Assembly: GCA_951406725.2 (NCBI GenBank)
Contig: OX597814.1
Coordinates: 73,408,001 to 73,472,000 of the forward strand
DNA: 64,000 bases
From: Octopus vulgaris
Lineage: Eukaryota
Reading direction: 5' to 3'
The translations under genes were made by a program, and so were the position numbers. Of the stretch, positions 12,110-62,392 are shown in pieces. Under the pieces are notes generated by a model. The model searched no databases, was not told the DNA's origin, and saw only the letters and a list, made by a program, of their open reading frames with translations. Position 1 is the first letter of the stretch. The number at the start of each line of letters is the position of its first letter.

Positions 12110-15100
12110 ATGATTTCTTTTATTTGCCACCAAGGCGAAGGATGATGGGAGACAATACAAAGACAAACATAAATTGTTGGGAGTTTACACATAATGGAAT
12201 GATAAAATAAAAAGTATACACGGTATATATTAGAAGAAGGGAAGTATACATAGTATATAACACTAGAAAAAGAGGGGAGGAAAAAAGTGAAAGGGATGGG
12301 ATCCTTCTGATTCAGGATGAGCTCTAGGGATACTCAAGGAAATCCACTCTTGCCATTTTCGCAACTTTCACCCACCATTCCATACATTCACTCGAGGAGA
12401 GCACTTCCCTCTCCACACTGACTTTTCTTCTCAAGTGAAACTTGAAAACGTCAATAAGGGCTTTATGAAGGAGGAATGTTTCTGTACTCATTCCTTTCAG
12501 CCTCGTCCACCAGATAACCTATTTCCCACAATCACCAGACAAAGGAAAACTGTCTTGCCAGCCCGATTAAAGAATAGTGGCGGGGCAATCATCATTATGG
12601 ACTCAGACGATAAGCAGGTCTGTCCTATACGCGACAGCAGCTGTTCGACATAACTCCACAAGTCAGCAATGCCCGGACACTGAACGAATGCATGCAAAAC
12701 GGTTTCGTCGCTCTGCGAGCACCTCGGACAAGCCTGTCTGATAGCAGATCCGTGCCTGTAGAGTTAATCTCGAACCGATAGCGCCCCGCCCCCGTAGCAC
12801 TACCACGCCAAAAACATCTGGAAATTATCCATGATAGTTCCCAGCCGGAAAGTCCTCTGGAATAGACTAGCCAGTTCATCTTCTTCAACGCCTATTGTCT
12901 CTCTGAGGACGTCGTCGCACTTCTCCGCTACTAATCCTCTGTAAATACCTAAAGTGGAACATCCACCGATCCTATTGCTCGACTTGTAGAGTACAGTGAA
13001 CGCTCGACGACATTCTAAGTGCCAGGCGCCCAGTATTAGCCTATCCTTTAACCAGGACTACAGCTCCGTCAGGGAGACGAGCTACGGAAAGGCGTGTTAC
13101 AAATGGAGCCCACACACGTTCAACTTCTACAAATCGCTGCAGGTAGCGCAACCTGAGTGCGTGTCTGCGCATTAAAATCTATGGCAGGCCTAAGCTCCCA
13201 CGCAAAGGAAGTTGGCAGCAGCTTGACCGTCTGGCCATTGGAACGCATCTCTTCTACAATAAAACAAACAGGATACGCTCCAGTCTGATCAAGCAGTAAC
13301 TAGAGCAAGGCACAACGGTCAGACGATAAATATTGACAGAGGTGATGTAGGCATTCGCCACCTCTGCCCGACCTTTCAGAGACAACTTCCTCTCTGCCTA
13401 TTTCTGGGCAAGAGAGGTCAACTTGTTCATTACCTCTTCACAATTCTTATCAATCTGGAGGTCGGGACCAAACCAGACGCTGAGCAGTTTAATTGGTCTG
13501 TCAGTCCAGCGTCCGACAGCATCGATCTGCTTCTCCAGGTGCCCAGTCGCAATCCCGCCAATTTGTCGGCATTGATTTTAGCCCCTGCAACCGATTCATA
13601 TTCCTTTACAATGGAGCCGACCGTCTCCACCTCGGAAGCATCCGACACCATGACGGTGACATCATCCGTGTATGCAGACACTGCCCTCCCGAGTCCAATT
13701 TCGAAAGGGAGGCCTCTTAACTGTTCCAACTTCCGCAGCAGAGGCTCGAGAGCCATCACATATAGAAGAGGTGACAGTGGGCAGCCCTGACGGACCGAAC
13801 GTGCGATACTAAACGGTTCCGATAGGTGGCCATTTACTTTGACCACCAAGCGAGTGCCACTATGTATTGCAGTAATTCAGCCTCTGAAAACGGATCCGAA
13901 GGACTGGTTCCAATTAGCGATGGTCTACCCTATCGAAAACTCGACTGATATAAATTGATCATTGCCCCACCGAAGGCACTTTTAGCCCCAGTCCTCTTTA
14001 CGATGTGTCGCATAAGGTGGAGGTTGTTGTGGATAGACCTACTCGGGATTGCGCACGTTTGTGCCTCCTCGACAAGACTATCAACGACAAGCGTCAACTT
14101 TTTCGCTAACGCCTTGGCCAAAATCTTAAACTCTGTGTTTAGCAGAGTTATGGGCCGAAAATTCCTTAGCATGTCCCCACTGTCGGCGTTCTTTCTTAGC
14201 AGTGTTACTACACTCCGGTCAACAGTACTAGGAAATCTCCCGTTCTGATGCCAGTTACTGTAGACAACTGCCAAGAGGCTGCCAAACAAATCTGGCATGA
14301 AAACATAAAATTCGTAGAGCTGACCATCCAAACTGAGCGATTTGCGACTTGTGCAATCGCTCATCGCCTCCCGTATTTCAAAGGCTGCAATCGGCTTTTC
14401 GCAGAATCTCACGTCCGTCGCCGAGAGCCGTGGTAGGCGGTCTAGGTACGAAGTAAAGTTTGCTATCGTCGTCGACCCATCACCCTCCCCAAACAGCCGC
14501 GCAAAGTGCTGCTGGAAAGCCGCATATATCTGCTCAGAACCGAGTAGCATGTGTCCGTCCCGATCCGTTTCCACGTCGCGTTTCTACCATTCGAGCCCAT
14601 CGGACGGCTTTAGTTCCTTTGTGTTTTAGCTCACGGGCCTTAGCTCTGACAACGTTCCTTTCGTGTTTCAGCTCAAATAAATGGTCAAGGTCCATTTTCG
14701 CCGCAGATACGTCGGTCGTGATGCCTTTACTAATAGCCTCTTCTAGTTTGCTAATTAGTTCTCCCTCTTATCTATTGTTAAATATTTGCTAAACGCTATC
14801 GATTCTACGTTAATCGCTCTCTTCAGAGCGATCCACCACCGATTGTTGACGACAGCCCCCGTCAACTGTCGCTCAACTAGTTCGCTAATCCGATCCTTGT
14901 AGTCTTTGCGAGCCGGTAAGGATGCATTCAACTTCCAGTAACCAGGGCCCTGTCTACGGGTCCTATCTAAATTGACTATGCAGATCACAAATTTGTGATC
15001 TGTGTAGCCGACCAATTTAAATCCATATCCTCTGACTTAACAAATACTCTATCTAAATACGATCTGGATGGTCCGCTGTGGTTGCTCCATGTCCACACTG

Positions 15101-23339: not shown

Positions 23340-24704
23340 ATATTGCTGAACCGCAAGCAGGCCAACATCCTGAATCCAGTGAGGACTCCTTGTTTGTAAA
23401 AAATGTAACCAGACAACAACAAGTGATTACTGAAAGAGCTAATATATTTGAAATTAGTTGAGGGTTTATGGTATGGGAAATATGAATCAGTATGTAAGTT
23501 AAGGGTAATATCCAAAAAGTTGGCTTTAGTTATATCATCATCAAAAACAATGCTTAAGCCCATGTTTCAAAAACGTTTAACCCTTTGTAATTTTTGGTTA
23601 GACACATTTTGAAGGTAGAGTAGACAATCATCACGATATAGACCTCCATTGATGTTTGGGAATTGGTCAGCCATCTCATAAAGGATATATATACCGACCA
23701 AATTAACGATTTCTGCTGAATCAGAACTGCCCATCGTGACATCAAAACTGTCGGGCATATGATTACGGATCCACAGCTTGTTATCAAATTTAATAATAGA
23801 TTTTCTGGCGGCTAACACGGCATTAATTTCATCGCTGGTGAGACCTGCTTTGTTGTGTGCGAGCCAGAGTGCCTTGTTGAGTACAATTGGGTTGTTAGAG
23901 GAATAGAAACTAGAAATGTCAAACTGGATAAACTTAGTTCACTTCTTGTTATTAATAGAATTAAACCAGTCGACCACTTGCAACGAATTAGATCATAAAT
24001 TAAGCTTTATTTATTTTTTTAACTAAGGTAGGAATATATTTATCTAGAATATTTTCGCTAAGTACACCGATATCAGAGCTAGAAAGACAAATAAGTCGTA
24101 AGGCTGGGTTATTAAAAAAAAATTGTTTGTGATCTTTTAAAATAAAACGAGGCTGTTTGGGATCAAGGGGTTCAGTATTCATCTGTAAGTCATATTTCTC
24201 CATAATTTTCTTTGCCTCAAGGTTGGATTTTTTGATTGCACTTTTACCGGTAATCCTATAATTCTTTTGTGTTTCTTTTCTAAGCGATTCTAGATAATAA
24301 TCCTTGGTAAGTCTGTATAAGTTTCCTGTTTTATCCGATTGAACCAGTATCCAATTCATGCTTTGAATTTCTTTCGTGATATTGTGAAGATACCTCAGAT
24401 GTTTATGTTTAAGGGTGAACGGTGGAATTTCACATTTCTCACGATAGACCAGAGATCGTCTTCAAACTGACTCAATCTTGGGTTAGGTGGAGGATTGGTT
24501 TTAGATTTAAACAACTTTTTGAATTCAGAAGTTAGATCGTTAGAGGGGTGTTTAATGTATTTATTATCGAAGAAGGCAAGTCATAATAAAGGAGTTTGTC
24601 TTACTAATAAAGGAGTTTGTCTTACTAATGAGTTGCTTAAGGAAAACCTTCCTTAGGGTAATGGGTATATTCTTAATAGATGCGTTTATATCAAATAACT
24701 CCAT
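23340..24704 (-). mobile_element. Penelope-like element RT pseudogene (5' part of ORF)
   Basis: Begins MELFDINASIKNIPI. Motifs SDKTGNLY, ILKDHK, FDVTMGSSDSAEIVNLVGIYIL, GLYRDDCL and NFLDITLNL..YFPYHKP are typical PLE RT. Frameshifted and 3'-truncated. Confidence 0.9.
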
Positions 24705-24744: not shown

Positions 24745-25425
24745 GTTGAAGTGTATATAAATGTATGTGTATTTTTTCAATGTTTACAAATAACAAGGAA
24801 ATAATAAATAAATAGTTACCAGGGAAGCGAAAATTCACACAAGTACCAAGGATGTAACAGCCTACTTATAAAGGCAGAAATTCCAGGTTTTGGTAAAATG
24901 TTTTTGTATCACATAGATAGATAAATATATGGAGTTAAACGCAGGTGATATTCAAATCTTTATACTACCGACATATGCTTCGAAGAAAACATTGATATTA
25001 TTCCAGAAGGAATAAAATGATGTAAAACAATTGTCTGGTTTAAAAAGCCACATCAGACACCATGATGGTGCTGAGGTGTATGTATAGGAGGTGGTCAAAC
25101 TCTGTATAAGGAGTAGACAACCACCATATATATATACACATACACATATAAATGTATGTGTATTTTTTCAATGTGTATAAATAACAAGGAAAAATAAATA
25201 AACAGTTACCAAGGTAGCAAAAATTCACATAAGTGCGAAGGATGTTACAGTCTACTTATAAAGGTAGACATTCTAGGGTTAAGTGAAATGTTTTTGTATA
25301 ACATAGATAAATAAAGAAATGGGGTTAAACGCAGGTGTTATTCAAATCTTTATACTTCCGACATACGTTTCGAAGAAACATTGATAGTTTTCCGGAAGGA
25401 ATAAAATGATGTAAAACAATGCAAA
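24745..25425 (-). repeat. Tandem ~390-bp-period duplication in the PLE pseudo-LTR region
   Basis: 24745-25035 and 25140-25425 share ATAAATGTATGTGTATTTTTT, GTTAAACGCAGGTG.TATTCAAATCTTTATACT and GAAGGAATAAAATGATGTAAAACAAT. Each carries a CGAA.C.TATGTC half-hammerhead on the minus strand. Confidence 0.85.
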
Positions 25426-25689
25426 CATCTCGTTACGAAAAAAAAGAAACAAAACGCATCAATAAGCCATTTTAACCTAATGTGATTACCACATATATGA
25501 TGAAAGGAACACTGGTACGTTATTCTTTTTAAAAAACGTCAAAGGTAATTTAGAGAAAGAGAACAAGGAGAAAGAAAGAAATTAACAGAAAATTAAGAGT
25601 GGAGAAATATAGTGTGATAGATGAATGGGAATGAAGCTTAAAAGCTTGGTATTAGATATATGTAGTGAAAATGAAATGTAAGAAGACAG

Positions 25690-26930
25690 TTAAAGGTTGA
25701 ATTTTATAGATTGGTAGAAATTACTTATAGGAATTAAAGGTATGTTTTTGCCAATGTTTGCCACGATAAAACGTTCTTTAAACGTGTTTACAAGAGAATT
25801 CTCCGAGAACAGAATGAGATATTGTTCTTCGTTACAGAGCGCACAAAAAGATTTACCTTTATCGTATGGAAAGGGTCTAGATAGAATATTCCATTCCAAA
25901 TCAAATTGTTTATTATCATCCTTTAGAGACCAAATTAATTTACTAAGCCCAGTATTGTTGCGTATATTAATATGTCTAAATGTCGAGTAATGGCTAGATA
26001 TTCTTTTGGACAACTGAGATGAAGAACTACCTATGTAAAAAAGACATCAGAACCGAAAGTAATTTTACATTGATAAACAGAGTTTCTAGTCTTAGAATTA
26101 CTGCTAAGGAAACGAATGCGATTCGAATTTATATCAGAAATAATAATGTTGTTGCTATTATTGTTCAAAGAATGGTTAGTGTAAATAATATCAATGTTAT
26201 TACTTTCATTAAGTGGATTTGTATTTAATAACTTATCGTTATGCGACGAGATGATTTGTGAAAGGTTTTTGGCGCTAGAAAGCTCTATTCTAATTCGGTG
26301 TGAATTAATATTCGATTAGTATCTTGAATTTTTGGGGAAATTCTTTTCTATAGCTTCAGGAATCTGATAAGAGAAGCTGGATTTGATCTGCTTACCATAT
26401 GGAATTATCAGCCGAACAGTTTTATTAGGATATAACTAGGGTAATTATCTTTAAAAGTCCTAAATTTACTTATATCACGAAAAATGAGACTTAAAGAACG
26501 GTTATCCATTTACGCTGCAAAATTACATTTTTCGCTTTAGTGTTGTTATTCGAAATGAAATTTATATTATTACCGCTATGACGTGTTTTCATGTCCTGAT
26601 TAATAGAGGTAGAATTAATGGCAAGAGGGTTAATATAGGTAATTTTTTCTTTATAGTTTGCTTTAAGTAAGGCAGAGTTATAAAATTCAGCTTTATGGTT
26701 GAAAATATCATCGCTAGCAGATAATCTATAGAGTCTAAGTGAAATATTTCTAATTAAATTCCTTGTAATAATTACTGAAAGAGGTAATAAATTTTAGATT
26801 AGTTGAGAGTTTATGGTATGAGAAATATGAATCATTATATAAGTTAAGGATAATATCCCAAATGTGTTGGCTTTAGTTATATCATCATCGAAAATAATGC
26901 TTAAGCCTATATTTCGAAAATTTTAACCAA
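25690..26930 (-). mobile_element. 5'-truncated Penelope-like element: RT C-terminal piece + GIY-YIG endonuclease
   Basis: FLHR/YIG-like region, then SKRISSHYSTFRH...TGLSKLIWSLKD...WNIL...CALCNEE. 26790-26925 matches 23440-23575. Confidence 0.85.

Positions 26931-33744: not shown

Positions 33745-33748
<4 letters not shown>
33598..33748 (+). mobile_element. SINE 3' fragment (family of 11608-11930)
   Basis: TGGTCTTCCATAAACAACCTTGCCCGGA..GGAGGGTAACTTTCTAGGTGCAATCCCAT. Confidence 0.8.
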
Positions 33749-33800
<52 letters not shown>

Positions 33801-34076
33801 TAAATTAGAGATAAAACCACTATTAGGCAAATCAAACAATGAAAAACATAAACCAAAACATAAAAATAAACATAATTAATATGATATACAAAATATATAA
33901 AATATGAAATTTAAAATTTGAATTATTTAATTAAAAATTTTTTAAATTTATATTTATAAATTTTTAATTTTTTAAATATTTTAAAATTTTAAATTAATAA
34001 ATTTTTAAATTTTTAATTAAAAAAAAATATAACTATCAAAAACTATTAAAATGTTTAATATAAGATAATAAGTAAA

Positions 34077-34175
34077 ACCACTACGTACGTTTCATGGCCA
34101 TAACCTAATTCGAATTACAATAATTTAAGTTCAATTAAAAATTCGAATTATAGTTATAATCAATCTTCAGGTTAA
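34077..34175 (-). ncRNA. Hammerhead ribozyme candidate with long stem II (left arm)
   Basis: AAC-CUGAAGA-UUGAUUAUAAC...GUUAUGGCCAU-GAA-ACGUACGU-A-GUG. Core intact, palindromic stem III, weak stem I. Confidence 0.65.
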
Positions 34176-35663
34176 TGATAATAGTTAAATAAATAAGCAA
34201 ATATATTTGAACAATATTTTTAAAGAAATAAATAAAATAATAATTTTTCTTATAAAAAACTCTATTATCAAACTAGAAACTTTAACGACTAAATTATTAA
34301 AATATTAAAATATATTTAATAAAAAGGTTTACTTATTTTTCAAAAATCGTGTCATTAACTAAACTAATAATAAACAAATGGAAAATTCTTTAACAATGAA
34401 AACTACGAATATATTTTATCAATGAAAAATACTACTACAATTATCAATTGAAAATAGCTATAATAGAACAAAGTCAACTATTAGAGATATTTATGAATAT
34501 ATAATATGGCTTAAAAAAACACAATAAACTCACAAATATCCATAACTCAGTTATAGTCCAAAAATTTAATTACCAAATTATTTAACTAAATATTCGTTAT
34601 TCATATTTTAGATTTAAGTACACATCTAATAATTATAAAATATTTAAAAATAATAACTAAATTACTATCAATAAATATTGTGATTAAAAACTAAAATTTA
34701 TGCTATCAATAAATGTATAGACATATAAAGAAAAATAAATTGATTAATTAATCCAATACTACTTACATAAATACTTAATATTAATATAATATAATTATGA
34801 GATACATTAAAAAAATTAAAGATTAAAATCAGATTAAAACTAGAAACCTAACTTTAAAAAATCGTATAACTATTAACGATCTATATATCTCTTTGACTAA
34901 GTAAAATCTTATTTTACTATTTTAATAATTTATATTATATGGTATTTATTGGATACTATATAACTACGGATTGATAATTTGATTGTATAAGTATTTAGTT
35001 GTTGAAGATATGTATTTCATTATTTCATTATTAGATCATAACTACACGGTTTTTGTAAGTTATTAATTAGCCAACGAGATATATTGATAGTTAAATAGTT
35101 ATAGGGTTTTTTTAAAGAAAGGTTATACGTTTACAATTTGCTTTTTCATCTTTAATTTTTTAATTTTTTATACATTTCGTAAGTAATAATGGAATAATTA
35201 ATTTATTTAGTTTTTTTTATAATACGTATATATATTTATTGGTAGAGATAATTTTAGATCTTAATTATTATATTTATATATATTTATTTATAATAATTTA
35301 GTTATTATTCAAATATTTTATAATTATTAGATTTGTACTTAAATTTATTAATATGAATAGTGATTATTCTTTTGATTATTTTTTTGTTTAATAATTGGGT
35401 AATTAGATATTGACTATAACTGAGATTAGGTTATTCGTGAGTTTATTTGTTTTTTAAAACCATATTATATCTGAATAGATAAATACATTTTCTATCTATT
35501 TTTACCTTAAAAATTAATATTTAACATCATAATTGGATTGTATGACATAATCCTAATTGTTAAAGTTTGATAATAGAGTTTTTTTATAAGAAAAATTATT
35601 ATTTTATTTATTTCTTAAAAAATATTGTTTAAATATATTTGCTTATTTATTTAACTATTATCA

Positions 35664-35762
35664 TTAACCTGAAGATTGACTATAACTATAATTCGAATTT
35701 TTAATTGAGCTTAAATTATTGTAATTCGAATTAGGTTATGGCCATGAAACGTACGTAGTGGT
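35664..35762 (+). ncRNA. Hammerhead ribozyme candidate with long stem II (right arm)
   Basis: CTGAAGA at 35669-35675 and GAAACGTACGTA at 35746-35757; inverted copy of 34077-34175. Confidence 0.65.
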
Positions 35763-36029
35763 TTTACTTATTATCTTATATTAAACTTTTTAATACTTTT
35801 TGATAGTTATATTTTTAAAAAAATTTTAAATTTAAAAATTTATTAATTTAAAATTTTAAGATATTAAAAAATTTTTAAAAATATAAATATAAATTTAAAA
35901 AATTTTAAATTTAAATAATTTAAATGTTAAATTTCATATTTTATATATTTTGTATATCATATTAATTATGTTTATTTTTACGTTTTGGTTTATGTTTTTC
36001 ATTGTTTGATTTGCCTAATAGTGGTTTTA

Positions 36030-37300
36030 CGAGGGGCGTTCAATAAGTAATGCCCCTGACCCACTTCCCATAGCAGTAGAGCAACGAAACTTGGCACAGG
36101 TATTAGTCTTTTTCTACATAGGAACAACCCAGAGGTACACATTTCTCCCATCGTTTGATGCAGTTCTGGAGACCGTTTTCGTAGAAGACCCCAGCTTGGT
36201 CCTCCAACCACGACGTGACTTCAGAAATCAAGGCTGCATCATCTGGGAAACGCTTTCCTTTCAAAAACAACTTCATGGCTGGGAAGAGGTGAAAATCAGA
36301 GGGTGCAAGGTCAGGAGAGTAGGGGGATGGGGGAAGAGTTCATAGCCGCACGCCTGTGCTTCTGATCTGGCGACACGCAAGTTGTGGACCGGAGCGTTGT
36401 CCTGCAGGAGGGGGATGCCTTTGCTGATCTTGCCCTGCCTCTTGGTTTCGATAGCTTCTCTTAATTTCCTCAAAAGTGAAACATGATAGGCTCCTGTAAT
36501 TGTGGTACCCTTTGCCAGGAAATCTGTCATCACTACTCCGTCCTGGTCCCAGAAGACTGTGAGCATGACCTTGCCAGCGGAGGGCTGCACCCTTGCCTTC
36601 TTTGGAGGAGGTGAGTCATGGTGCTTCTACTGCATTGACTGGGCTTTGGTCTCTGGATCTTAGTGATGGACCCAGGTCAGATCCTGTGTAATCAGTCTTT
36701 TGAAAAATTTTGACTCATCTTCTTGGCACATCCCTAAATTCTTGCTTCTGGAATTCTTGCGTTCTTGCTTCTGGAAAAGTGTGAGCAACCTGGAAATCCA
36801 TCTGGCAGACACCTTTTGCATATGCAAATGGTCATGAATGATAGTTTCCACAGACCCGGTACTAATCTTGACCTCATGGGCTATTTGGCGAATAGTTATG
36901 CATCGATCTTCCAAAATGGCAGCCTCAACTTGACGGACAGATGCCTCATCAATGGCAGAAGGGGGCTACCAGATCTGGGAGCTGTTTCCACAGAGTTCCG
37001 ACCATGTTTGAATACACGATGCCAGCGTTTTACAAGGTCATATGATGGGGCATCCTGTGGTGTGCGTCATTTCAAATACAAAAACCGGATCACTGCTCGA
37101 CACTCAACATGCTCCATTTCCCACTTGACTCATTTCAAAGACCTGTAAATCAGAAACCACAATTAGTTCGGAGCTGTAATTTATCACTTAATCTATAGAG
37201 ATATCAATAATTGCACATGCAAAATCAAACAAGCTAGATCAAACAGCTAGATCAAACAAAGGCAAGTGGGTCAGAGGCATTACTTATTGAACGCCCCTCG
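36030..37300 (-). mobile_element. Full-length mariner (DD34D) transposon, defective
   Basis: TIRs CGAGGGGCGTTCAATAAGTAATGCC.CTGACCCACTT with TA TSD (36028-36029 / 37301-37302). Motifs KVSARWISRLL, GKVMLTVFWDQDG, QDNAPVH; stops and frameshifts. Confidence 0.95.
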
Positions 37301-37621
37301 TATCTATAATTTAATTTATATTTATATTGTGAAATTGAATTTAATCCTAAATCTAATTTTCCCCTGTAAGTTTGGATTTACTCCCTAATATATATATATA
37401 TATATTATGTGAAATAGAAAGATGAATAATCTTGTAGTAGATTAATCAAAAGTTTAACCGATACCTTAGTAGCAAAAATCACAGCCGTAAACAGCACGGT
37501 TGGAGGTACAACCATATGGTGTTGCAACCGTGCGTTGGTGCGGATACTTGAAATTAAAATATTATTGGTGAATTGAAGAAATGGAGCTGAACGCAGATTG
37601 AACAGAAATCGTTTTATTTCA

Positions 37622-49422: not shown

Positions 49423-49438
49423 TATATATTTATATATA

Positions 49439-50705
49439 CGAGGGACGTTCAATAAGTAATGCCTCTGACCCACTTGCAGTTGTTTGATCTAGCTGAAATG
49501 TTGCATGTGCAATCATTTATATCTCTATAGAGTAAGTGAGAAATTACATCATTTATATCTCTATAGAGTAAGTGACAAATTACAGCTCCGAACTAATTGT
49601 GGTTTCTGATTTACAGGTGTTTGAACCGAGTCAAGTGTGAAATGGAGCATGTTGAGTGTCGAGCAGTGATCCGGTTTTTGTATTTGAAAGGACGCACACC
49701 ACGGGAGACTTTTGATGAAATGAAAGTAACTTATGGTGATGTTGCCCCATCATATGACCTTGTAAAATGCTGGCATCGTGAATTCAAACATGGTCGGAAC
49801 TCTGTGGAAACAGCTCCCAGATCTGGTCGCCCCCTTCTGCCATTGATGAGGCATCTGTCCGTCAAGTTGAGGCTGCCATTTTGGAAGATCGACGTATAAT
49901 TATTCGCCAAATAGCCCATGAGGTCAAGATTAGTACCGGGTCTGTGGAAACTATCATTCATGACCATTTGCATATGCAAAAGGTGTCTGCCAGATGGATT
50001 CCCAAGTTGCTCACGCCTTTCCAGAAGCAAGAATGCGTCGAGTGCTCGAGGGTGAATTTGGAGATGTGCCAAGAAGATGAGTCAAAATTTTTCAAAAGAC
50101 TGATTACACAGGATGAAACCTGGGTCCATCACGATGATCCAGAGACCAAATCCCAGTCAATGCAATGGAAGCACCGTGACTCACCCCCTCCAAAGAAGGC
50201 AAGGGTGCAGCCCTCCCCTGGCAAAGGGTACCACAATTGCAGGAGCCTATCATGCTTCACTTTTGAGGAAATTAAGAGAAGTTATCAAAATCAAGAGGCG
50301 GGGCAAGATCAGCAAAGGCATCCTCCTCCTGCAGGACAACGCTCCGGTCCACAACTCGCGTGTCGCCAGATCAGAAGCACAGGCGTATGGCTATGAACTC
50401 CTCCCCATCCCCCCTACTTTCCTGACCTTGCACCCTCTGATTTTCACCTCTTCCCAATCATGAAGTTGTTTTTGAAAGGAAAGCGTTTCCCAGATGATGC
50501 AGCCTTGATTTCTGAAGTCACGTCGTGGTTGGAGGACCAAACTGGGTTCTTCTACAAAAACGGTCTCCAGAGCCACATCAAACGATGGGAGAAATGCGTA
50601 ACTCTGGGTGGTTCATATGTAGAAAAAGACTAATAACTGCCATGTTTCGTTGCTCTACTGCTATGGGAAGTGGGTCAGGGGGCATTACTTATTGAACGCC
50701 CCTCG
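49439..50705 (+). mobile_element. Full-length mariner (DD34D) transposon, defective
   Basis: Same TIRs as 36030-37300, located in a TA tract. MEHVECRAVIRFL..., WIPKLL, QDETWVH, QDNAPVH; frameshifts, ~60-bp internal deletion, ~35-bp 5' UTR duplication. Confidence 0.95.
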
Positions 50706-51160
50706 TATATATATATATATATATGTATGTGTGTATGTGTGTGTGTGTATATACATATATGTATGTATATGTATATATTATATTATCAAATAGAAGTGAG
50801 TATATATACATATGTATATATGTGTGTGTGCATGTGTGTGTGTGTGTTTATAATTCAGAAATTCATCCAAAATTTGAAAGGCAGTAACGAAACCTTATTT
50901 TGTACAAAATTGTATAATACTTTTACTCTTATGATTCTAAAATATTCTTTCGTCTTTTAAAACAAATCTTCTGTGTTTTTTCATCTTATTTTTTTCCGTG
51001 GGTCTATGTGTGTGTGTGTGTGCGAGTGCGTGCGTGTGTGTGTATGACTATGCCTATATATATGGCGATATATACATGCATATATGTATGTAGATATTTA
51101 TGTACATATATATATATATATATATCTGTAAAATAATATGTGACATTTATTCGGTTGCCA

Positions 51161-52084: not shown

Positions 52085-52330
52085 ATCCAAAAAGTTCAGT
52101 TCTTGAATTTAGACATGTTGCGAGGTCTAAGCTGCATTTTCAGATGAGCCATCATTCCATATGACAAAGACCGCACTTTCCACTACCGTTGGTGTAAAGC
52201 TTGCACTTGGCTAAGATCTTCCAATGGATGTTGTAATTGACACCTTTTTCTTTTAAGGACCATATGTAACTGGATAATTTGGTTGGGAATTTTAAAGCCA
52301 TGTTCCAATAACACACCTTGAGCTTCAGGT
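52085..52330 (-). mobile_element. Penelope-like GIY-YIG C-terminal remnant
   Basis: TKLSSYIWSLKEKGVNYNIHWKILAKCKLYTNGSGKCGLCHME, homologous to the ORFs at 25690-26013 and 61408-61908. Confidence 0.85.
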
Positions 52331-53242
52331 ACTGGGAAAAAAAGAAAAACAACTAGCAACTCACAACAATTTCTTAATAACTACTACGAGGCTTTCATTA
52401 CGTGTAAACACAAATTCTTCCGCACTTTTAATTTCTTTCCTAAATCTAAATGTAAGTTCACCACCCCCACGTATTGCACCCACATACAAACCCCTATGAT
52501 CATTAACACATACCCCTCTATATTTCTTGTATCTCCCCTATATCTCTATATCTCTAATTTCTACCTTATATCTTACATCTATTCTCTCTACCTTACCTCA
52601 TCACTTTATAAGATAATATTAATTCTTTAATCTATCCTTAATTTATTTTTAAATATTAACCAAATATATCCCCTAATATAAATTCCCTAACATCTAACTC
52701 TAACTTCCACTCATAAATAATTTAACATTCAATTAGCTCCTCGATTCTCGACTACTTACACACTCGTAACCCCATTTCTAAAAATAACTTTATAGCCACT
52801 GACCTTATCTAGAAAGGACATAAGTATTTACTACTAGATTTCCTCACCAATACCTATAGACTTTAAGACTACCACAGACACCTACTACTGTCTTTAAAAT
52901 CCTTTCATTTTGCTCTATTTTTACCTTGTATTCCTCTACCTGCTAATCCTCTCTCTTATCTTCTCGGCTACCCCATATACAAATATAAGACACCATATAC
53001 CAATACACCTTTATCCTAAAGTCAATCCTTAAATTCCCCCACCTCACTCTATCTACCTCTCTTTGTATTTCTTTTCTTTTCTTTCCTTTTACCACTTAAC
53101 AGACACCTCCGCTACCATTTTGTTATTGAATGTTGATATGTTCGCGTCTTTTTTTATGTTTACTATATCAGGATTTTAACCCACATAGATAATATTGTAT
53201 ACGACTTTTGCTTGCCTAAATGTTTGTTGTCCTCTAAAACAA

Positions 53243-61407: not shown

Positions 61408-62392
61408 TCAATCTGGTTGCCGGGTAGGTCTATAGTTCTTGTAGTTCGCATACTTCTTATGCATGCAATTTGGGGAGTGTTCTGAGATTTTGTTAAGGAG
61501 AGGGCCTTTGGCGAACAAGATCTCTAGGCTCTCCGATATGCAGAGGTCACAGCAGGTATGGCCTCCTGTGTACGAACGCGCCTTCTGTAGTAGTTTCCAC
61601 TTGGTCTTGAATGGGATGGAGTTCCTTTTAAGGTACCAGATGTGGGCGGCGAGGGTAGTTTGGTTGGATTTATCCTGTCGCCGGAACGAGTGTGTGTGTG
61701 CGTACCAACGGGTCTTAAAGCTGTTTGACGTCATTCCGATGTAGGATTTTCTTTTATCGTCAGGGCCTGATCTTACCTCGCATGTATATACTAGGTCCCT
61801 CTGTAGGCAGTTGTTGTTGAGGGGGCAGGTGGTTTTATCAGGGCAGTTGCAATTGCTATCGGACGTAGGATGGGCCTCGGAAAAAGTAGATATGTTAAGT
61901 TTTTTCACATTGTTGTTGGCTAGGTTCCTGGCTAGATTGGGCGTGGTAGAGTAGGAGAGTCTAATAGTGTTCTTATTTAGGATAGTGTAGTACTTATGTT
62001 GGGTGGGGAAGTGTTTCTGTAGGAGAGTGAAGAAGATTTTAGCTACAGGTGTAGCGACCTCACGGTTGAAGGGGGGGGGTTGTACCAGCTAATGTGTCTT
62101 CGTCTATTTTTCCTGGGTTGGCGTGGGGCTATACTAGTATAGGTAATCTTATCTTTAAAGCCACTGCGGGCCAGGGCCTCGTTGTAATAGGGGGCTGCGG
62201 CCTTAAAGATATCTTCCGTGGCGGACAGGCTAGAAATTCTAATTGAGACACTTTTTACTAGGTTATCTAATATATTTTTGGGGTGGTTGGAATTAATATC
62301 TATATATCTAAGGGATTCATTTGGTTTGTGGTACGGGTAATAGAGTGAGGTTTTTAAGTCGAGGGTGACGTCAAGGAAGTTAGCTTTTGTTA
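61408..62392 (-). mobile_element. 5'-truncated Penelope-like element: RT thumb + complete GIY-YIG endonuclease
   Basis: TKANFLDVTLDL..YPYHKPN..SNHP..WYNPP, one frameshift at the G9 run (62070-62078), then an open frame to CNCPDKTTCPL..LVYTCEV..YIGMTSNSFKTRWYAHTHSF..HIW..CDLCISE. Confidence 0.93.

What the first reader, a model, noticed from the sequence alone, without database searches (positions are those of the whole stretch)
33795..37390. 2.2-kb AT-rich rod-like palindrome with a hammerhead on each strand
Seen: outer ~490-bp arms are closely matched, and degenerate inner pairing extends almost to the centre (~34905/35058). Both arms keep an intact CUGAAGA...GAAACGUACGUA core with a long stem II, facing outward. 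No ORF; a short tail at 37321-37390; TA flanks. Inference: a transcript of either polarity would fold into a ~1-kb rod and carry its own ribozyme, an architecture reminiscent of viroid-like RNAs. Better-matched outer than inner arms suggests repeated fold-back copying or gene conversion. The simpler reading is a non-autonomous PLE with inverted pseudo-LTRs.
Basis: partly seen in the sequence, partly recalled or inferred. Interest (0 to 1): 0.85.

Follow-up and report, generated by a model that had tools for sequence, protein, structure and literature searches.

The report
Folded-back Penelope retrotransposon end, Hydra clade
The 2.2-kb palindrome with a self-cutting RNA motif on each strand is real, but it is the truncated end of a common Penelope-like jumping gene inserted as two opposed copies with one piece flipped, likely all in one insertion event, and not a viroid-like RNA.

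Summary
The palindrome, both hammerhead cores, the tail, the TA flanks and the later mariner-type insertion are confirmed. The viroid-like reading fails.

The sequence is the AT-rich 3' untranslated end of an RT plus GIY-YIG Penelope-like element with the Hydra-clade motifs. A full-length decayed copy and an intact 840-aa sister ORF lie in the same genome.

The ~70% inner pairing is an old direct tandem duplication carried by the family: 72.8% identity here, 70.8-75.3% in six unflipped copies. It pairs only because one 620-bp unit is flipped at this locus. Both flip junctions are found once in the genome. In the predicted rod the hammerhead is fully sequestered, and its stem I has only 2 contiguous pairs.

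Inverted arms occur at 19 of 78 motif-bearing loci. Published Hydra elements show the same layout, and this scan found such fold-backs before on other DNA.

One point remains of interest. The 3' tail sits on exactly one arm in 16 of 19 inverted loci, never on both, and 51 of 59 other loci lack it. This suggests two coupled priming events, possibly on one RNA. Expression was not tested.

The parts
33748..33797 (.). (TA)n microsatellite, left target flank
   Evidence: Hydra-clade PLEs insert in (TA)n (PMC8557442 section 11)
33798..34289 (-). Left arm: inverted 5'-truncated copy of the PLE 3' end (hammerhead region plus terminal segment), without tail
   Evidence: 94% to right arm; terminal 100 nt differ by 1 from the right arm against 5 or more from each of 49 other distinct copies
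34082..34170 (-). Type I hammerhead core on the minus strand; predicted cleavage after the GUA ending at 34082; stem I 2 bp
34290..34911 (-). Flipped 620-bp unit (Ap) of the family's AT-rich 3' UTR; in other copies it lies directly upstream of unit A in the same orientation
   Evidence: 89-94% to Ap of six other copies; both junctions found once in the genome; about 24 nt duplicated at the two junctions
34912..35560 (+). Unit A of the 3' UTR, an old ~72% tandem duplicate of the Ap region
35561..36029 (+). Right arm: hammerhead region and terminal segment of the pseudo-LTR
35669..35757 (+). Type I hammerhead core on the plus strand; predicted cleavage after 35757; long stem II; 2-bp stem III with palindromic GUAC loop; stem I 2 bp
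36028..37302 (-). Later Tc1/mariner-type DNA transposon (36030-37300) with TA duplication; broken transposase
   Evidence: second copy at 49437-50707
37303..37390 (+). End of the terminal segment (37303-37319) plus the ~70-nt PLE tail (37320-37390), which in full-length copies lies just upstream of the ORF start
37391..37407 (.). (TA)n right flank

Best explanation
This is a 5'-truncated, two-armed insertion of the 3' end of a Penelope-like retrotransposon with Hydra-clade motifs, in which one 620-bp unit of an old tandem duplication is flipped, likely during the insertion itself. Shown: the family order is tail - ORF (RT + GIY-YIG) - 2.5-kb AT-rich 3' UTR (including units Ap and A as direct repeats) - hammerhead - terminal segment - tail; the window holds two opposed partial copies in a (TA)n site; and the rod junctions are found only here. 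Inferred mechanism: the element's endonuclease cut both strands of a TA repeat, and each 3' end primed a cDNA on the element RNA. One cDNA began at the tail end and ran through the hammerhead and unit A (right arm). The other began ~70-90 nt further in, ran through the hammerhead, and then jumped to the still-uncopied RNA just where the first cDNA had stopped, copying Ap (twin-priming type). The two cDNA ends were then joined. A mariner-type element inserted later. The two hammerheads and the rod are by-products; the locus is most likely an inert relic, and any read-through transcript would be long double-stranded RNA with the ribozyme sequestered.
For: Full-length decayed copy L059 links the sequence to an RT+GIY-YIG ORF. 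Intact sister ORFs of 837-851 aa carry DKT, CxCx5C, YIG, CxxC and CxH motifs. Ap lies in direct order in 15 of 78 loci; of the 4 loci with inverted Ap, only the window has it flipped alone. Ap/A identity is 72.8% here and 70.8-75.3% in six tandem copies. Each junction pattern matches once in 2.8 Gb. The left junction coincides with the end of the inverted arm, and about 24 nt are duplicated, as expected for one event. The arms share a template: 1/100 differences in the terminal segment and one variant private to both arms. Inverted arms occur at 19 of 78 loci, with the tail on exactly one arm in 16. Published parallels: inverted 5'-truncated copy and one-sided tail (PMC8557442 section 6); Penelope-13_HM with a 966-nt inverted copy and hammerheads listed on both strands (supplement); dual hammerheads on opposite strands in Schistosoma (PMC4209133); both-strand cleavage and two initiation sites in vitro (PMC11167929).
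Against: A later in-place inversion of Ap gives the same order; a 9-nt inverted match between the two ends of Ap could have guided it. No phylogenetic tree against reference Hydra sequences was built. Pfam gave no RT or GIY-YIG hit for the intact ORF and PDB gave none; domain calls rest on motifs, the Atlas neighbours and by-eye likeness to published Hydra proteins. In this family the terminal repeat stops before the ORF start, whereas in Poseidon and Adineta Penelope it includes the first codons. No reads or RNA were examined.
Confidence: 0.92

Rival explanations
1. Same element and same two-armed insertion, but the Ap unit was inverted later, in the chromosome, by microhomology-guided repair.
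For: A 9-nt inverted microhomology joins the two ends of Ap in canonical copies, 11 nt from the right junction. Complex rearranged copies exist in the family (L012/L026, L064, L129).
Against: The left breakpoint falls exactly at the junction between inverted arm and direct copy, with no unflipped remnant, and about 24 nt are duplicated. That would be a coincidence for an independent later event.
Confidence: 0.2
2. A viroid-like or retrozyme-like RNA: the rod with a ribozyme in each polarity is itself the replicating unit and was written into the genome.
For: Both strands are predicted to fold into a rod (-860.5 and -852.1 kcal/mol, 762 and 779 long-range pairs) against -314.3 and 208 for an unflipped 1854-nt copy. 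Both cores are intact.
Against: Junctions found once; the inner similarity equals that of direct-repeat copies, so there is no sign of selection for pairing; every part maps to a PLE 3' UTR; 88 of 89 hammerhead nucleotides are paired long-range in the minus fold and nearly all in the plus fold; no tandem hammerhead-bearing units among the 84 exact motif matches.
Confidence: 0.02
3. Assembly fold-back artefact.
For: Single-copy junctions in a repeat-rich, AT-rich region; read support was not examined.
Against: The arms differ (6 of 241 substitutions in the hammerhead region, 16 substitutions and 4 gap columns in the 126-column AT-rich middle). Only one arm holds the mariner-type insertion and the tail. 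The same two-armed layout recurs at 18 other loci.
Confidence: 0.02
4. The locus has been co-opted as a source of long double-stranded RNA (siRNA or A-to-I editing substrate) that silences the family.
For: A transcript would form about 760 long-range pairs covering the family's 3' UTR and hammerhead. Small RNAs from Penelope copies are reported in Adineta (PMC3846280 passage).
Against: No promoter or transcript is shown; arm differences show no directional bias; other kilobase-scale inverted copies exist (L053, L064, L162), so this locus is not special.
Confidence: 0.06

Closest known systems
Hydra-clade EN+ Penelope-like elements (Craig et al. 2021, PMC8557442), e.g. Penelope-13_HM and Hydra-1_Obim
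   Same: Single ORF with C-terminal GIY-YIG, DKT, CxCx5C linker, (TA)n targets, 3' hammerhead with an extra U on each side of stem II as in the published Hydra list; Penelope-13_HM is annotated with a 966-nt inverted 5'-truncated copy and a hammerhead on each strand.
   Different: A different family from Hydra-1_Obim (other hammerhead). The 3' UTR is about 2.5 kb at 16-19% GC with an internal tandem duplication, so the unit is about 5.5 kb against the published 'generally <3 kb'. RWK reads KWK. Stem II is 70 nt, stem I only 2 contiguous pairs.
Canonical PLE insertion unit with inverted pLTR and optional tail (Arkhipova et al. 2013, PMC3846280; Frangieh et al. 2024, PMC11167929)
   Same: Head-to-head inverted arms, tail on one arm, AT-rich target, two 3' end points matching two initiation sites.
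   Different: Tail is about 70-90 nt rather than 30-40 nt and ends before the ORF start; an extra flipped internal segment makes the palindrome 2.2 kb.
Minimal or atypical PLE hammerheads (Cervera and De la Pena 2014, PMC4209133), notably the Drosophila virilis variant
   Same: Short palindromic helix III, extra nucleotide at the base of helix II; the D. virilis motif also has a 2-bp helix I; dual motifs on opposite strands were already noted.
   Different: Much longer stem II; the 5' strand of stem I prefers a shifted register that covers the cleavage site.
Hammerhead viroids, viroid-like rod RNAs and non-LTR retrozymes
   Same: Predicted rod fold; a hammerhead in each polarity.
   Different: Here the two ribozymes are inverted copies of one motif, the rod is single-copy DNA, there are no tandem ribozyme-bearing monomers, and all parts belong to a protein-coding retrotransposon. 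Viroid features are recalled; retrozyme definition from bioRxiv 10.64898/2026.07.22.740005.
LINE-1 twin-priming 5' inversions (recalled, not read)
   Same: A 5' segment is inverted and abuts the non-inverted part with a short duplication.
   Different: Here the second primer would be the end of the opposite-arm cDNA rather than bare target DNA.

Membership tests
Hydra-clade PLE | Single ORF with RT and C-terminal GIY-YIG endonuclease in the family | tested here: met
   L059 decayed ORF upstream of the same 3' UTR; 840-aa sister ORF with YRDD, MG and VY..YIG motifs; Atlas neighbours carry GIY-YIG and RVT_1 on a minority of members; no Pfam hit
Hydra-clade PLE | DKG modified to DKT | tested here: met
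   QSDKTRN at residue 126 of P0001
Hydra-clade PLE | RWK motif present, GxKF/Y absent | tested here: inconclusive
   GxKF/Y absent; the motif reads IKWKA, one conservative change from RWK
Hydra-clade PLE | CxCx5C linker; CxxC and CxH flanking the endonuclease E and N | tested here: met
   CTCRDKSNC, CYLCSNEFKE, CRH
Hydra-clade PLE | Hammerhead near the 3' end in sense orientation | tested here: met
   stem I weak in this subfamily, 3-4 pairs in sister subfamilies
Hydra-clade PLE | Insertion into (TA)n | tested here: met
   window flanks; most copy ends that could be read run into (TA)n
Hydra-clade PLE | Generally shorter than 3 kb | tested here: not met
   L059 unit is about 5.5 kb because of the long 3' UTR; the paper gives this as a tendency, not a diagnostic
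Hydra-clade PLE | RT phylogeny groups with Hydra references | not tested
   only by-eye likeness to Hydra-1_Obim and Hydra-2_Amil text in the supplement
PLE insertion architecture | 5'-truncated copy with adjacent inverted copy and one-sided tail | tested here: met
Non-LTR retrozyme | Tandem monomers each bearing a type I hammerhead | tested here: not met
   no same-strand neighbours within 5 kb among 84 exact matches; the Ap/A duplication holds no hammerhead
Viroid-like rod RNA | Rod conserved as a unit across copies | tested here: not met
Viroid-like rod RNA | Ribozyme able to fold in each polarity | tested here: inconclusive
   sequestered in the predicted equilibrium rod; co-transcriptional cleavage cannot be modelled here
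Viroid-like rod RNA | Circular RNA of both polarities in cells | not tested
   no read-level data examined

The most novel reading that the evidence does not exclude
Both arms of an inverted Penelope insertion are copied from one RNA molecule by two coupled priming events at staggered sites, one with and one without the tail, and this locus froze the hand-off: the tail-less cDNA re-primed exactly where the tailed cDNA stopped. This would explain why the tail is on exactly one arm and make twin priming on a single template the source of PLE palindromes.
Probability: 0.35. Interest if true: 0.45.

Novelty: new member of a known kind. Interest (0 to 1): 0.2.

Why it matters
As a sequence it is an ordinary retrotransposon relic, and a warning that rod-plus-two-ribozyme signatures in animal genomes arise as by-products of Penelope insertions. 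Its one useful side is mechanistic. How PLE inverted arms and one-sided tails form is still open (PMC8557442 names it as a task; PMC11167929 leaves later steps unvalidated). This family gives a countable coupling between tail and inversion, a junction that predicts single-template twin priming, and a young sister subfamily with intact ORFs (98-99% identical) that could supply the protein for an in vitro test.

Tried and rejected
Rfam scans at gathering and E<=5 thresholds found no hammerhead. Pfam and PDB sequence searches of the intact ORF gave no informative hit. The protein search returned 40 relatives of 7999 candidates scored, mostly unnamed, and was not used further. The sequencing-run search listed no holder on record as RNA; this says nothing about expression. 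Read-level support for the junctions and for transcription was not obtained and stays open.

Hidden ORF in the palindrome: rejected (longest stop-free stretch 49 codons; no tblastn match to the family protein). Gene conversion between the inner arms: rejected. U-U at the base of stem II as a defect: rejected, because the published Hydra hammerheads have the same extra U on both sides. Energy cost of the active hammerhead fold (9.0 kcal/mol for both arms against 2.3-8.5 in five sister motifs) does not separate live from dead. The stem I duplex energy for the window is not used, as the forced pair was not kept. Dimer cofolding gave no hammerhead dimer for any sequence, including the sisters, and is uninformative.

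Literature searches for a single-RNA twin-priming account of PLE arms listed nothing direct; the library lacks most subscription papers, so this is not proof of absence.

Full report
Observation. After the mariner-type insertion is set aside, the region from 33798 folds back on itself. Outer arms are 94.4% identical over 466 nt. The inner arms score 293 against 49.6 +/- 7.8 for 200 dinucleotide shuffles, with about 200 unpaired nt at 34290-34490. Hammerhead cores lie at 35669-35757 (+) and 34170-34082 (-); Rfam does not detect them. GC is 15.9% and there is no ORF over 49 codons. The insertion at 36030-37300 has terminal inverted repeats, a TA duplication and a Transposase_1 hit.

The family. 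The window lies in a 2.8-Gb genome of 227 contigs. The inner region gave 1339 first-look candidates and the hammerhead region 1682, of which 40 each were scored. In other copies the left inner unit (Ap, the reverse complement of 34290-34911) lies directly upstream of the right inner unit (A) in the same orientation. So the two inner 'arms' are an old direct tandem duplication. Ap/A identity is 72.8% in the window and 70.8-75.3% in the six tandem copies tested; in those six the inverted score is 29-43, at shuffle level. The window's Ap is 89-94% identical to Ap of those copies. Conversion or selection for pairing is therefore not needed.

The autonomous element. Locus L059 reads terminal segment, tail, a 2.57-kb decayed ORF, about 2.5 kb of 3' UTR at 16-19% GC holding Ap and A, the hammerhead and the terminal segment again. 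A search with that ORF gave 61 matches from 40 scored candidates, among them a sister subfamily at about 78% with six ORFs of 837-851 aa among the 25 loci returned; five are 98-99% identical to L078. The 840-aa product has DKT, KWK, YRDD, CxCx5C, VY..YIG, CxxC and CxH and lacks GxKF/Y. These match the Hydra-clade description in Craig et al. 2021 (PMC8557442; I read passages, sections 6 and 11 and supplement look-ups). No tree was built, Pfam and PDB gave no domain hit, and the element is longer than the published 'generally <3 kb'.

How common the layout is. An exact 18-nt hammerhead motif has 84 matches (45 forward, 39 reverse; control 0), which form 78 loci; 6 loci have the exact motif on both strands facing outward (my count from the table). 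All 78 were mapped. Nineteen have an inverted arm within 4.4 kb upstream. Fifteen have Ap in direct order. Four have inverted Ap; in three it is part of a longer inverted copy in normal order, and only the window has it flipped alone. Each of the two junction patterns matches once in the genome at 2 and 3 mismatches. Published parallels are close: Penelope-13_HM is listed with a 966-nt inverted copy and a hammerhead on each strand; Cervera and De la Pena report dual motifs on opposite strands 100-700 bp apart (PMC4209133, parts 1-2 of 4 read); Arkhipova et al. describe inverted pLTRs with an optional tail and favour self-priming on an antisense template (PMC3846280, passages).

Tail coupling. 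As scored automatically, the tail is on exactly one arm in 16 of 19 inverted loci and on both in none; 51 of the other 59 loci have no tail (Fisher p = 3e-8). Recounting by eye (L161 has its tail behind an insertion; L107, L110 and L146 have a tail-only inverted arm) gives 20 of 22 against 5 of 56. The sample was chosen by an exact motif, short or distant arms can be missed (L112 is one), and the one-sided tail is already known qualitatively.

The arms share a template. They differ at 1 of 100 nt in the terminal segment, whereas each of 49 other distinct copies differs from the right arm at 5 or more. They differ at 6 of 241 in the hammerhead region and share one private variant among 37 copies; three other copies are slightly closer to the right arm there, but those copies were selected by similarity to it. 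The AT-rich middle differs more (16 substitutions, 4 gap columns in 126), mostly in A/T runs.

Mechanism. Frangieh et al. show that a PLE protein cuts and extends both target strands, starts at two adjacent internal RNA sites that bound the tail, and does not need hammerhead cleavage in vitro (PMC11167929, parts 1-2 of 4 read). Applied here (inference): one cDNA began at the tail end and stopped at the start of unit A. The other began at the inner site, ran through the hammerhead, then resumed on RNA just where the first had stopped, with about 24 nt of overlap, and copied Ap. That is twin priming as known for LINE-1 (recalled). A later in-place inversion gives the same order and has a 9-nt inverted microhomology in its favour, but needs its left break to fall exactly on the arm junction; I give it about 20%.

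The ribozyme. The script found 53 distinct hammerhead-like matches in loci L001-L089, two of them chance. Thirty-four have this subfamily's form, with 2 contiguous stem I pairs in most; sister subfamilies have 3-4 pairs and other stem III loops, among them the palindromes GAUC and AAUU. Stem II shows compensating changes between subfamilies by eye. The local fold prefers a shifted stem I register that covers the cleavage site, but the energy gap is not much larger than in sisters, and a 2-bp helix I is known in D. virilis. In the full rod the sense hammerhead always lies in the second arm and is paired to its antisense copy. Activity at this locus is unlikely but untested.

Verdict. A real, single-copy 2.2-kb palindrome made of ordinary PLE parts. 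It works like, and by motifs belongs to, a Hydra-clade Penelope insertion; it fails the tests for retrozyme (definition from bioRxiv 10.64898/2026.07.22.740005, parts 1-2 of 5 read; its supplements were not seen) and for a propagated viroid-like rod. Earlier notes of this scan reached similar readings on other genomes; they are unchecked leads, not support. Expression and read support remain open.

Noticed in passing
L078:1508-4030 (G000:C4:127711909-127714431); also L072, L079, L083, L085, L086: Young sister subfamily with intact 837-851-aa ORFs, 98-99% identical, with a compact hammerhead (4-bp stem I) about 240 nt upstream of the start codon; it includes an Asn-rich linker like those reported in Adineta Penelope elements.
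   Followed up: partly
L080:47-231 and 1191-1374; L068; L087: Near-perfect (99-100%) inverted terminal arms attached to full-length sister copies, with hammerheads on both strands in L068.
   Followed up: partly
window 23423-24686 and 25765-26037 (-), 61456-62384 (-), 52155-52337 (-): Other decayed PLE RT and GIY-YIG fragments related to the same protein (34-46% identity).
   Followed up: no
window 49437-50707: Second copy of the mariner-type transposon (85-94% identical); related copies also interrupt family members L031 and L044.
   Followed up: partly
window 35750-35766 and 36015-36029: The sequence right after the cleavage site (AGTGGTTTTA) recurs near the element's 3' end point; its complement resembles the 5' stem I strand of sister hammerheads (L068, L076), which this subfamily has lost.
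   Followed up: no
window 13430-14583 (-): Fragments that read like a LINE reverse transcriptase (label from recall of the motifs).
   Followed up: no
window 24860-25460 (-): Two ~390-nt direct repeats inside a PLE remnant, one holding a one-mismatch copy of the hammerhead GAAAC motif (25361-25371).
   Followed up: no
L054:4829-5446 and L057:7525-9898: An unrelated ~185-nt tandem repeat shared between two loci.
   Followed up: no
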